Assembly: GCF_013167455.1 (NCBI RefSeq)
Contig: NZ_CP038328.1
DNA from: Escherichia coli O157:H7
Lineage (GTDB): Bacteria; Pseudomonadota; Gammaproteobacteria; Enterobacterales; Enterobacteriaceae
Reading direction: 5' to 3' (one strand)
DNA: 64,000 bases
Shown here: in pieces, positions 42,201 through 45,200 of the stretch
Layout of the letters: each line of letters starts with the position of its first letter
Numbering within the stretch: position 1 is the stretch's first letter
Made by a program: the position numbers

Positions 42201-45200
42201 CAGGACGTGATGGACTCGGTACAACGATTGCGGCAACTGGCACAACAAACCGGCTCGCTGAAGTCATCAACCGAACAGAAAGTTATTACCACAACGAAGA
42301 AAACTGTACCGGTAACACAGACAGTCACGGCTCCCGTCATACCATCCAATACCGTTTCAACTGCCAACCCTGTCATTACAGAGCCTGCAACAACCGTCAT
42401 TTCCATTGAGCCCGGCAATCCTGATGTGGTCTATATTCCCAACTACAACCCAACCGTGGTTTACGGGAACTGGGCCAATACTGCGTATCCGCCGGTTTAT
42501 CTGCCACCACCAGCCGGAGAACCGTTTGTTGACAGCTTTGTACGCGGATTCGGCTATAGCATGGGCGTTGCTACCACGTACGCACTATTCAGCAGCATCG
42601 ACTGGGATGACGACGATCATGACCATCATCATCATGACGATGATAATTATCATCACCACGATGGCGGTCATCGTGACGGTAATGGCTGGCAACATAACGG
42701 CGACAACATCAATATCGACGTCAACAATTTCAACCGTATCACCGGTGAGCATCTTACTGATAAGAATATGGCATGGCGGCACAATCCAAACTACCGTAAT
42801 GGTGTGCCCTATCATGATCAGGATATGGCAAAGCGGTTTCATCAAACTGATGTCAACGGCGGAATGAGTGCCACGCAGCTACCTGCTCCAACACGCGACA
42901 GCCAGCGTCAGGCGGCAGCAAGTCAGTTTCAGCAACGAACACACGCCGCCCCCGTCATTACACGAGATACCCAACGTCAGGCAGCGGCACAGCGGTTTAA
43001 TGAAGCTGAACACTATGGGAGCTATGACGACTTCCGCGACTTCAGCCGTCGCCAACCACTGACCCAGCAACAAAAGGACGCCGCTCGTCAGCGTTATCAG
43101 TCAGCTTCTCCTGAGCAGCGCCAGGCAGTTCACGAGAAAATGCAGACTAACCCGCAGAACCAGCAGCGAAGAGAGGCAGCGCGTGAGCGCATTCAGCCCG
43201 CCTCGCCTGAGCAGCGCCAGGCAGTCCGCGAGAAAATGCAGACTAACCCACAGATCCAGCAGCGAAGAGACGCAGCGCGTGAGCGTATTCAGTCAGCCTC
43301 GCCTGAGCAGCGCCAGGTGTTTAAGGAAAAAGTACAGCAGCGCCCACTGAACCAACAGCAACGTGATAACGCCCGCCAGCGTGTTCAATCAGCATCACCT
43401 GAACAACGTCAGGTTTTTCGGGAGAAAGTTCAGGAGAGCCGCCCACAACGTCTAAACGACAGTAACCATACTGCCAGGCTGAATAACGAGCAACGGTCAG
43501 CAGTACGCGAACGTCTCTCTGAGCGCGGAGCAAGGCGACTGGAAAGGTAAATTACAGGCGTAAAAAAAGCGGCGTGGTTAGCCGCTTTTTTAATTGCCGG
43601 ATGTTCCGGCAAACGAAAAATTACTTCTTCTTCGCTTTCGGGTTCGGCAGGTCAGTAATGCTACCTTCGAACACTTCTGCCGCCAGGCCCACAGACTCGT
43701 GCAGAGTCGGGTGCGCGTGGATGGTCAGTGCGATGTCTTCAGCATCACAACCCATTTCAATTGCCAGGCCGATTTCACCCAGCAGCTCGCCGCCGTTAGT
43801 ACCGACAATCGCACCACCGATCACACGGTGAGATTCTTTGTCGAAAATCAGCTTGGTCATACCGTCTGCGCAGTCGGAAGCGATAGCACGACCAGAAGCA
43901 GCCCACGGGAAGGTGGCGGTTTCATAGCTGATGCCTTTCTCTTTCGCTTCTTTCTCAGTCAGACCTACCCATGCAACTTCTGGTTCGGTATAGGCGATGG
44001 ACGGGATAACTTTCGGATCGAAGTAGTGTTTCTTACCGGCGATAACTTCAGCGGCAACGTGACCTTCGTGAACACCTTTGTGTGCCAGCATCGGCTGACC
44101 GACGATATCGCCGATAGCAAAGATGTGCGGTACGTTGGTACGCAGCTGTTTGTCAACGCGGATGAAACCACGGTCGTCAACTTCCACGCCAGCTTTGCCT
44201 GCGTCGAGGTTTTTACCGTTCGGCACACGACCAATCGCTACCAGCACGGCGTCGTAACGCTGCGGTTCAGCTGGTGCTTTTTTGCCTTCCATCGTCACAT
44301 AAATACCGTCTTCTTTCGCTTCAACGGCGGTAACTTTGGTTTCCAGCATCAGGTTGAATTTCTTGCTGATACGCTTGGTGAAGACTTTAACGATGTCTTT
44401 GTCAGCTGCCGGGATAACCTGGTCGAACATTTCAACCACGTCAATCTGTGAACCCAGCGCGTGGTAAACGGTGCCCATTTCCAGACCGATGATACCGCCA
44501 CCCATTACCAGCAGGCGTTCTGGTACTTCTTTCAGTTCCAGCGCGTCAGTAGAGTCCCAGATACGCGGATCTTCATGCGGAATAAACGGCAGTTGAATCG
44601 GGCGAGAACCCGCTGCAATGATCGCGTTGTCGAAGTTGATCACGGTTTTACCGTTCTCACCTTCAACTTCCAGGGTGTTAGCCCCGGTAAATTTACCCAG
44701 ACCGTTGACCACTTTGACTTTGCGGCCTTTCGCCATACCAGCCAGACCACCGGTCAGCTGATTGATCACTTTCTCTTTCCAGGTACGAATCTTGTCGATA
44801 TCGGTTTTCGGTTCGCCGAAGACGATACCGTGTTCAGCCAGCGCTTTGGCTTCTTCGATAACTTTTGCTACGTGCAGCAGTGCTTTAGAAGGGATACAGC
44901 CGACGTTCAGGCAAACACCGCCAAGGGTGTTGTAACGTTCTACGATTACGGTTTCCAGACCTAAATCAGCGCAACGGAAGGCAGCGGAGTAACCTGCGGG
45001 GCCTGCCCCAAGTACCACGACCTGAGTTTTGATTTCAGTACTCATCATGACCTCTATATATTTATCTCCGGCGGGTCTGACGTTTTTTTTATGACGCCCA
45101 TTATCCACCGGGTCGTTCTATCCGTCGGTATTTTACAAAATTGTTAACAATTTTTAAACAACAAACGGCAACCGATTTGTCTATTCGCTAATAACCTCAA

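What the first reader, a model, noticed from the sequence alone, without database searches (positions are those of the whole stretch)
42595..42710. Asp/His-rich low-complexity tract in YacH (possible metal-binding segment)
Residues DWDDDDHDHHHHDDDNYHHHDGGHRDGNGWQHNG form a dense acidic, histidine-rich cluster in a protein with a signal peptide, which suggests periplasmic divalent-metal binding. The gene neighbours nothing obviously metal-related.
Basis: inference. Interest (0 to 1): 0.35.

Follow-up and report, generated by a model that had tools for sequence, protein, structure and literature searches.

The report
Asp/His-rich disordered loop in YacH
The Asp/His-rich stretch is real: it is a floppy, length-variable loop that enterobacteria have inserted into a tight turn of the exported, uncharacterised protein YacH, and it could bind metal ions chemically, but nothing found here links it to metal biology.

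Summary
The window is E. coli, with acnB, yacH and lpdA in that order. The quoted peptide is exact. It is residues 302-335 of the 617-residue YacH (nt 42600-42701), and 19 of 24 residues are D or H, against a maximum of 13 in 20,000 shuffles.

YacH is a DUF3300 (PF11737) protein. In 86 diverse family members the same position is a turn with a median length of 4 residues (W-[GH][RH][GH]D-VNINVN). Only the enterobacterial YacH branch has a 13-38 residue D/H/Y/G-rich insert there.

All 12 Enterobacteriaceae orthologues examined have the insert. It begins with a conserved acidic run (mostly DWDDDD), but the His count ranges from 1 to 12.

Within E. coli it changes length by slippage: +6 nt in about 545 genomes, +24 nt in about 84 genomes, and one in-frame -39 nt deletion. 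AlphaFold2 models it as disordered (pLDDT below 50) between two short strands.

No metal-regulator operator, metal gene neighbour or metal-related paper was found. The published links are to envelope stress and cationic peptides (Cpx, Rob, protamine).

Metal chelation is chemically plausible but physiologically unsupported. This is an ordinary low-complexity loop with some evolutionary interest. Escherichia has also lost the DUF2950 partner gene.

The parts
41697..43550 (+). yacH CDS (617 aa), a DUF3300-family exported protein of unknown function
   Evidence: ORF. RefSeq annotates the same CDS in K-12 and other strains. Pfam PF11737 E = 5e-78.
41697..41771 (+). N-terminal signal peptide or signal anchor (about aa 1-25: MKMTLPFKPH-VLALICSAGLC-AASA)
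   Evidence: Only hydrophobic segment above the TM/signal threshold (KD 2.04 for aa 11-29). Conserved in orthologues with an AAS|G motif. No lipobox. Helix 9-24 in the AF2 model. The cleavage site is inferred and was not run through a predictor.
41919..42695 (+). DUF3300 Pfam match (aa 75-333): helical N-domain at 75-184, then a beta-rich part. The tract lies at the C-terminal end of the model.
   Evidence: profile positions 2-227 of 227. AF2 pLDDT above 90 for aa 70-200.
42582..42605 (+). Conserved upstream anchor ALFSSIDW (family consensus ALWG-[GD]-C-[DN]-W). W303 is present in 84 of 86 relatives.
42600..42701 (+). The Asp/His-rich tract, aa 302-335 (11 D, 10 H, 5 G). It is predicted disordered, length-polymorphic and quasi-palindromic at the DNA level.
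   Evidence: composition and shuffles. (pLDDT below 50). (length variants). (direct and inverted repeats).
42702..42734 (+). Conserved downstream anchor DNINIDVNNFN (family consensus D-[VI]-[ND]-[IV]-[ND]-V-N-R-Y-N). In most relatives it lies 4 residues after the conserved W.
43056..43317 (+). 96-nt (32-aa) tandem repeat, 2.7 copies, encoding the basic Q/R-rich 'SASPEQRQ' helical repeats of the C-terminal tail (aa 451-617, net charge +18)
   Evidence: TRF. (the repeat block is one 32-aa unit shorter in some E. coli strains). (charge). (helices 457-547).

Best explanation
The tract is a lineage-specific, intrinsically disordered, low-complexity loop. In the common ancestor of Enterobacteriaceae, the tight 4-residue turn of the DUF3300 core (W-[GH][RH][GH]D-VNINVN) was expanded into a 13-38 residue D/H/Y/G-rich insert. 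It has kept changing length since then, by slipped-strand and microhomology events among GAY/CAY codons.

The protein is exported by its N-terminal signal, so the loop sits in the cell envelope. There it most likely acts as a polyanionic patch that binds cations and protons. At neutral pH its charge is about -9. Its HHHH/HHH runs and Asp clusters could chelate Zn2+, Ni2+, Cu2+ or Co2+ with low to moderate affinity, as a natural His-tag would. His protonation would neutralise it near pH 5.

It is an accessory charge and cation module on an envelope-stress-regulated protein. It is not part of a dedicated metal-homeostasis system.

Shown here: existence, composition, position in the family alignment, taxonomic restriction, length polymorphism, predicted disorder, and absence of metal-related context. 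Inferred: export to the periplasm, cation binding, and pH switching.
For: - Composition is far beyond chance.
- The loop between W303 and I338 has a median length of 4 residues in 86 family representatives, and only 8 of 86 are 15 residues or longer. The long D/H-rich ones are the closest YacH-like sequences.
- All enterobacterial orthologues examined keep an acidic start (mostly DWDDDD) and a D/H/Y/G composition although their sequences and lengths differ: Escherichia, Salmonella, Klebsiella, Raoultella, Enterobacter, Kluyvera, Dryocola, Buttiauxella. This suggests selection on composition rather than on sequence.
- Variant alleles have the form expected of slippage. Nissle has an exact 24-nt tandem duplication, JJ1886 a 6-nt CATGAC duplication, and K71-77 a 39-nt in-frame deletion between CATCA microhomologies. 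About 84 genomes carry the first and about 545 the second.
- An 8-bp deletion (GATCATCA) at Asp284 of Salmonella yacH, in D/H codons (gacgatcatcac), is reported in PMC10048834.
- pLDDT is below 50 across the tract in two AF2 models, and short strands flank it.
- There is an N-terminal signal-like segment, and rhizobial DUF3300 proteins are reported to carry signal peptides (PMC4653623).
- His is already frequent in the ancestral short turn, in 41 of 78 short loops.
- Only His-tags match the tract in PDB sequences.
- Computed charge is -9.4 at pH 7.5 and about 0 at pH 5, using generic pKa values.
Against: - No metal binding has been measured.
- His count varies from 1 to 12 among orthologues, and one E. 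coli allele lacks 13 tract residues including 5 His. High His content is therefore dispensable, at least in some lineages.
- No metal-regulator operator scores above chance upstream.
- The neighbours are acnB and lpdA.
- No metal phenotype or metal-responsive expression appears in the searchable literature.
- Low-complexity loops can persist with little or no function.
- Periplasmic location is predicted, not demonstrated. Papers variously call YacH 'extracellular' or 'outer membrane' without evidence.
Confidence: 0.5

Rival explanations
1. The tract is a near-neutral slippage product. It is a tolerated low-complexity spacer in a surface turn and has no specific function. The D/H composition simply reflects which repeat-prone codons (GAY/CAY, self-complementary GATCATGATC-type sequence) were amplified.
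For: Length and His count vary widely between genera and within E. coli, including a 13-residue in-frame deletion annotated as an intact gene. The DNA is full of short direct and inverted repeats. The tract is predicted disordered. 78 of 86 family representatives have only a turn of 4-10 residues at this site.
Against: The insert has been retained in every enterobacterial genus examined, at about 45-50% overall protein identity. All keep an acidic start (mostly DWDDDD) and a D/H/Y/G composition. Pure drift should have eroded the composition or lost the insert in some lineages. In-frame variants greatly outnumber disruptions in 5,416 E. coli genomes.
Confidence: 0.27
2. The tract is an electrostatic, pH-responsive latch. 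The acidic loop (-10) binds polycations, either YacH's own basic C-terminal Q/R-rich repeats (+18) or cationic antimicrobial peptides and polyamines. His protonation in acid, or metal loading, releases the partner. This would tie the tract to the published protamine phenotype.
For: - A delta-yacH mutant survives protamine better than wild type.
- yacH transcript levels respond to cationic peptides: down with protamine and cecropin A, up in the cathelicidin table (PMC9600279; PMC6737244).
- yacH is Cpx- and Rob-dependent and ampicillin-induced.
- The acidic start of the tract, not the His content, is its conserved feature.
- The charge layout is -10 for the tract against +18 for aa 451-617.
- The computed charge switches between pH 7.5 and pH 5.
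Against: The phenotypes were obtained with a whole-gene deletion, not with the tract. No interaction data exist. The C-terminal tail is highly variable in repeat number and differs strongly between genera, and the AF2 models give no confident contact. This is entirely inference.
Confidence: 0.15
3. The tract is a dedicated periplasmic metal-homeostasis element (metallochaperone, buffer or sensor). It would be comparable to the ZnuA His-rich loop, ZinT or PA4063.
For: The composition resembles the His/Asp loops of periplasmic zinc proteins. PA4063 has disordered His-rich loops that contribute to micromolar zinc binding (PMC8561739 abstract). YacH carries an export signal.
Against: There is no Zur, Fur, NikR, CusR or RcnR-like operator. 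There are no transporter or metal genes nearby in E. coli or in the other genera, where the only conserved neighbour is DUF2950. His content is not conserved. No metal-related literature was found. The rest of the protein shows no known metal-binding fold.
Confidence: 0.08

Closest known systems
DUF3300 (Pfam PF11737) family of exported bacterial proteins, usually paired with DUF2950 (PF11453)
   Same: YacH matches the model at E = 5e-78. It shares the family's helical N-domain, the PxVVYVPxYNPxVVYG segment, the Gly-rich ALWG..W anchor and the VNINVNRYN strand. It also shares the N-terminal signal.
   Different: The D/H-rich insert replaces the family's 4-residue turn. Escherichia lacks the adjacent DUF2950 gene, which is present in the other enterobacterial genera examined, in the Bradyrhizobium locus, and reportedly in all rhizobia surveyed. 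The family itself has no known function and no solved structural relative.
His-rich flexible loops of periplasmic zinc-binding proteins (ZnuA-type cluster A-I solute-binding proteins; P. aeruginosa PA4063)
   Same: These loops are exported, disordered, and His-rich. In ZnuA-type loops, from my own knowledge, they also carry acidic residues and vary in length between orthologues. They contribute low-affinity (micromolar) metal sites (PMC8561739 abstract; the ZnuA details are from my own knowledge).
   Different: Those proteins also have a structured primary metal site, are Zur-regulated, and are encoded beside or function with ZnuBC-type transporters. YacH shows none of these features.
His/Asp/Glu-rich loops or tails of E. 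coli Ni/Co/Zn proteins (RcnA loop, SlyD C-terminal tail, CDF/ZIP transporter loops). This comparison comes from my own knowledge and was not tested here.
   Same: Runs of His interspersed with acidic residues. They are low-complexity and variable between species.
   Different: Those proteins are cytoplasmic or are membrane transporters with demonstrated metal substrates. YacH is a soluble or anchored envelope protein with no transporter domain.
PhoQ periplasmic acidic patch (EDDDDAE), which binds divalent cations and cationic antimicrobial peptides. This comparison comes from my own knowledge.
   Same: A cluster of consecutive Asp residues exposed in the periplasm. There is also a functional link between the protein and cationic-peptide susceptibility.
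   Different: PhoQ's patch is short, lacks His, is structured against the membrane, and is part of a sensor kinase. YacH has no signalling domain.

Membership tests
DUF3300 (PF11737) | Profile HMM match above Pfam's gathering score | tested here: met
   262.1 bits against a cutoff of 25, E = 5.3e-78, aa 75-333 covering profile positions 2-227 of 227.
DUF3300 (PF11737) | Conserved core motifs (APxALYPD..L, WD.SVK, PxxVYVPxYNP.VVYG.W, ..W-turn-VNINVN.YN) | tested here: met
   Invariant and near-invariant columns in 86- and 64-sequence alignments. W303 is present in 84 of 86 sequences.
DUF3300 (PF11737) | Short (about 4-residue) turn between the conserved W and the VNINVN strand | tested here: not met
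   YacH has 34 residues between W303 and I338, against a family median of 4. This is the lineage-specific difference. It is not a Pfam criterion.
DUF3300-DUF2950 two-gene module | DUF2950 gene immediately downstream on the same strand | tested here: not met
   tblastn with Klebsiella and Bradyrhizobium DUF2950 proteins found nothing in the window, in the seven other E. coli yacH loci (L001-L007), in L008 or in E. albertii L009. It hit all 9 other enterobacterial loci and the Bradyrhizobium locus. A DUF2950 homologue is also present in Salmonella.
Periplasmic metal-homeostasis proteins (Zur/Fur/NikR/CusR-regulated binding proteins) | Metal-responsive regulator operator upstream | tested here: not met
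   Best matches to 12 consensus operators in 41401-41720 did not exceed those found in shuffled sequence (at least 37% of shuffles did as well for every motif). The consensus strings came from memory, so this is a weak test.
Periplasmic metal-homeostasis proteins | Genomic association with metal transporters or chaperones | tested here: not met
   Neighbours are acnB and lpdA in E. coli. In Klebsiella the order is acnB, yacH, DUF2950, lpdA.
Periplasmic metal-homeostasis proteins | Measured metal binding, or a metal-dependent phenotype or expression | not testable with these tools
   No experimental data were found in the library. This needs ITC/ICP-MS and genetics.
Periplasmic metal-homeostasis proteins | Conservation of the liganding residues (His) across orthologues | tested here: not met
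   His count in the insert ranges from 1 to 12. The acidic start is the conserved part.
Sec-exported (periplasmic/envelope) protein | N-terminal signal peptide with n-, h- and c-regions | tested here: inconclusive
   K2 and K8, a hydrophobic stretch at 11-29 (KD 2.04) and an AAS|G / ASA|G motif are conserved in orthologues. No SignalP-type predictor or topology experiment was available, so cleaved signal and signal anchor cannot be distinguished.

The most novel reading that the evidence does not exclude
The D/H loop is a tunable, slippage-prone charge module. It gates an interaction between YacH and polycations, either host cationic antimicrobial peptides or YacH's own +18 C-terminal tail, in a pH- and metal-dependent way. 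Tract-length alleles (34, 36, 42 or 21 residues) would then set different cationic-peptide susceptibilities in different E. coli lineages. This would also give the first functional handle on the uncharacterised DUF3300/DUF2950 module.
Probability: 0.1. Interest if true: 0.6.

Novelty: new member of a known kind. Interest (0 to 1): 0.3.

Why it matters
YacH belongs to the E. coli 'y-ome', and DUF3300 is a large family. HMMER found 9,548 representatives at E <= 1e-3. The family has no known function, and the searches here found no solved structure related to it.

Three results make YacH more tractable:
- The D/H tract is an enterobacteria-specific expansion of a conserved turn.
- The tract varies by slippage.
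- Escherichia has lost the otherwise conserved DUF2950 partner gene.

These define a clean loop-swap experiment, replacing the tract with 'GHGD'. They also show that E. coli may be an atypical model for the family. If the loop binds metals or cationic peptides, that could explain the protamine phenotype of delta-yacH. If it does not, it is one more tolerated low-complexity insert, and it could co-purify on Ni-NTA resin as a natural His-tag.

Tried and rejected
- Second transmembrane segment at aa 283-301 (GFGYSMGVATTYALFSSI, Gly-zipper-like), which would have put the tract in the cytoplasm. Rejected because the Kyte-Doolittle 19-residue mean is below 1.0 there; only aa 11-29 passes.
- Lipoprotein. 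Rejected because there is no lipobox before C16 or C21, and Buttiauxella has no Cys at all.
- Overlapping ORFs across the tract (+ strand 42406..42867; - strand 42585..42845). Their I/M/T/V-rich translations are out-of-frame readings of GAT/CAT codons and show no sign of being genes.
- Promoter-like hit inside the tract (42619-42647). It is at chance level: 2 found against 1.6 expected.
- Rfam. Nothing reached gathering score. A weak miRNA-like hit at 42613-42680 only reflects the quasi-palindromic DNA.
- Metal-regulator operator scan. Nothing scored above shuffles.
- PDB by sequence. No relative was found; the tract matches only His-tags.
- The search for homologous proteins with aa 240-401 returned mostly fragments and frameshifted pieces from noisy assemblies. 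These were useful only as extra examples of tract variants.
- Literature searches for yacH with metals, DUF3300, DUF2950 and the PF numbers gave no functional study of the family.
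Full report
**1. What is at the coordinates**

The window matches E. 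coli chromosomes at 100% identity. The region is acnB (- strand, 38745..41495), yacH (+ strand, 41697..43550, 617 aa) and lpdA (- strand, 43621..45108).

The quoted peptide DWDDDDHDHHHHDDDNYHHHDGGHRDGNGWQHNG is encoded exactly, at residues 302-335 (nt 42600-42701).

It holds 11 Asp and 10 His in 34 residues. The densest 24-residue window has 19 D+H. In 20,000 shuffles of YacH the mean was 6.4 and the maximum 13. It is the only D/H run of 6 or more in any of the six frames of the window.

**2. The protein**

YacH matches Pfam DUF3300 (PF11737) at E = 5e-78 over aa 75-333. The tract lies at the C-terminal end of the Pfam model. NCBIfam has no model for it.

The only strongly hydrophobic segment is aa 11-29 (Kyte-Doolittle 2.04). 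It follows K2 and K8 and contains an AAS|G / ASA|G motif that is conserved in orthologues. There is no lipobox. This looks like a Sec signal peptide or signal anchor, so the rest of the protein is probably in the envelope. No dedicated predictor or experiment was available, so export remains an inference. A study of rhizobia also reports signal peptides on DUF3300 proteins (PMC4653623).

The Gly-rich segment just before the tract (aa 283-301) is not hydrophobic enough to span a membrane. I therefore rejected a topology that would put the tract in the cytoplasm.

Charge is strongly partitioned: the tract is net -10 and the C-terminal 167 residues are net +18.

**3. Where the tract sits in the family**

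An exhaustive HMMER search found 9,548 relatives at E <= 1e-3. I aligned 85 near-full-length representatives from the best 150 hits with YacH. The stretch between the near-invariant Trp (W303) and the conserved [VI]-[ND]-[IV]-[ND]-V-N strand (I338 onward) has a median length of 4 residues. Its consensus is [GH]-[RH]-[GH]-D. Only 8 of 86 sequences have 15 or more residues there, and the long D/H-rich ones are the sequences closest to YacH.

The tract is therefore an expansion of a tight turn in the conserved core. It is neither a family-wide feature nor a terminal tail. His is already common in the ancestral turn, appearing in 41 of 78 short loops.

**4. Orthologues**

Eleven are Enterobacteriaceae, and every one carries an insert beginning with an acidic run, mostly 'DWDDDD':
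- E. albertii: 11 His
- Klebsiella spallanzanii: 9 His
- Dryocola boscaweniae: 6 His (DWHDDDDYHHHHHDDNYNSGN)
- Kluyvera genomosp. 1: 6 His
- Enterobacteriaceae RIT691: 6 His
- Enterobacter soli: 5 His
- Raoultella ornithinolytica: 4 His
- Buttiauxella sp. A111: 3 His
- Enterobacter sp. ENT03: 3 His, only about 13 residues
- Buttiauxella agrestis: 1 His (DDDDYDGYHGGGGGYNRNGD)

A low-quality Salmonella assembly shows DYDDDHHHHDNDDHHDDDYHHGGNGYQHNGDN. Protein fragments from Klebsiella michiganensis and other genomes show further D/H-rich variants. The Bradyrhizobium homologue has no insert (CNWGNRNVYVN).

So the insert and its acidity are conserved across Enterobacteriaceae. Its length (13-38 residues) and its His content (1-12) are not.

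**5. Variation within E. coli**

5,416 of 5,426 complete genomes carry the region. Eight alleles that I aligned all keep the tract. The variants are:
- An exact 24-nt tandem duplication (+DDHDHHHH). It is in Nissle 1917 and ATCC 25922, and about 84 genomes match at 99% identity or better.
- A 6-nt CATGAC duplication (+DH). It is in JJ1886, and about 545 genomes match.
- A 39-nt in-frame deletion between CATCA microhomologies in strain K71-77. It removes HHDDDDYHHHDGG, and the gene is still annotated as intact.
- An inversion with one breakpoint in the tract in an ETEC isolate.

A Salmonella Typhimurium isolate is reported to carry an 8-bp deletion (GATCATCA) at Asp284 of yacH. It lies in D/H codons (gacgatcatcac) and truncates the protein (PMC10048834).

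The DNA is rich in short direct repeats and in quasi-palindromes, because GAT-CAT strings are self-complementary. These changes have the form expected of slipped-strand and microhomology-mediated events.

**6. Structure**

Two AlphaFold2 models were built. The full-length model has mean pLDDT 72.5. The core model (aa 66-401) has pTM 0.78.

Both give a confident helical N-domain (aa 75-184, pLDDT above 90) followed by a beta-rich part. Short strands lie at about aa 299-301 and 338-341 on either side of the tract. The tract itself has pLDDT below 50. This fits a hairpin whose turn has been expanded into a disordered loop. I could not check the strand pairing directly.

No solved structure resembles the protein:
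- phmmer against PDB sequences found nothing.
- Foldseek gave E >= 0.24.

The tract alone matches only engineered His-tags in PDB sequences.

**7. Context and regulation**

Nothing metal-related lies nearby. I scanned 41401-41720 for 12 operator consensus sequences, written from memory: Zur, Fur, NikR, CusR, RcnR, MntR, ZraR, PhoP, PmrA, CpxR, Mar/Sox/Rob and a MerR-type site. None did better than shuffled sequence.

The library holds no paper that links yacH to any metal. What it does hold:
- yacH is CpxR-regulated. Delta-yacH survives protamine better than wild type, and protamine and cecropin A lower its transcript (PMC9600279).
- Its expression drops in a rob mutant (PMC7537768).
- It appears among genes changed by a cathelicidin peptide in UPEC (PMC6737244).
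- Its promoter is induced by ampicillin (PMC8865558).
- Sigma-28 holoenzyme binds the yacH-acnB spacer in vitro (PMC5493296).

The experimental signal is therefore about envelope stress and cationic peptides, not metals.

**8. Interpretation**

The best-supported account is a lineage-specific, slippage-maintained, disordered polyanionic His/Asp loop on an exported protein.

Its chemistry makes low- to moderate-affinity chelation of Zn/Ni/Cu/Co almost unavoidable in vitro. With generic pKa values its charge would go from about -9 at pH 7.5 to about 0 at pH 5.

Retention of the insert and its composition across genera at about 45-50% protein identity argues for some selection on composition. The free variation in His number and in length argues against a precise metal site.

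I give about 0.5 to 'accessory cation/proton-binding charge patch'. I give about 0.27 to a near-neutral spacer, about 0.15 to an electrostatic latch for cationic peptides or the basic tail, and about 0.08 to a dedicated metal-homeostasis role.

**9. Comparison with known systems**

YacH is a true DUF3300 member. The HMM and the core motifs are met. The short turn is not, which is the novelty, and the DUF2950 partner is missing in Escherichia.

The loop resembles the His-rich flexible loops of periplasmic zinc proteins (ZnuA-type proteins, PA4063) and the His/acidic loops of RcnA and SlyD (from my own knowledge). It fails the features of those systems that could be tested here: metal-regulated promoter, transporter neighbourhood and conserved ligands.

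The run of consecutive Asp also recalls PhoQ's cation- and peptide-binding acidic patch (from my own knowledge). That is a lead, not a test.

**10. Verdict**

As a kind of feature this is ordinary, so the interest score is modest (0.3). The useful new facts are:
- the mapping of the tract to a conserved 4-residue turn;
- its restriction to Enterobacteriaceae;
- the allele series within E. coli;
- the loss of the DUF2950 partner gene in Escherichia.

Noticed in passing
window 43551-43620 (yacH-lpdA spacer); loci L010-L019, L024: In Klebsiella, Raoultella, Enterobacter, Kluyvera, Buttiauxella, Dryocola, Enterobacteriaceae RIT691, Salmonella and Bradyrhizobium, the yacH homologue is followed on the same strand by a DUF2950 (PF11453) gene. 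Escherichia (this window, the seven other E. coli yacH loci L001-L007, L008 and E. albertii L009) has none; only 70 nt separate yacH from lpdA. E. coli YacH is therefore an orphan half of a conserved two-gene module.
   Followed up: partly
window 43056-43317: There is a 96-nt (32-aa) tandem repeat in 2.7 copies. It encodes basic Q/R-rich 'ARERIQSASPEQRQAVREKMQTNPQ' helices. The repeat block is one 32-aa unit shorter in several E. coli strains, so yacH length ranges from 585 to 619 aa. The tail differs strongly between genera.
   Followed up: partly
window 41567-41579: A perfect 6-1-6 palindrome, GGTGATAATCACC, lies in the divergent acnB-yacH intergenic region. It looks like an operator but could not be assigned to any regulator. 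It matches only 12 of 19 positions of a Fur-box consensus, which is chance level.
   Followed up: partly
L022 (E. coli ETEC L3_E36, NZ_LR882997.1), yacH: There is an inversion inside yacH with one breakpoint in the D/H tract. After ...CACCACGAT the sequence continues as the reverse complement of downstream yacH. The gene is annotated as a frameshifted pseudogene.
   Followed up: no
window 41697-43550, compared with 5,425 E. coli genomes: yacH is unusually divergent for a gene flanked by highly conserved acnB and lpdA. Best-place DNA identity to this allele falls to 90-95% in 1,694 genomes, and one 'E. coli' strain (AST85) encodes a protein only 74% identical. B2-type strains (Nissle, ST1193) also carry about 170 extra nt between yacH and lpdA.
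   Followed up: no
L019 3797-5512 (Bradyrhizobium iriomotense): The Bradyrhizobium DUF3300 protein ends in a Peptidase_S74 domain (intramolecular chaperone of endosialidase), preceded by a long Gly/Arg-rich region. This hints that some family members undergo C-terminal self-processing or oligomerisation. A histidine kinase gene lies immediately upstream.
   Followed up: no
window 43560-43630, - strand: There is a sub-threshold Rfam hit (AgrB antisense RNA, 28.8 bits against a gathering score of 40) in the yacH-lpdA spacer. It is most likely just the terminator hairpin shared by the convergent genes.
   Followed up: no
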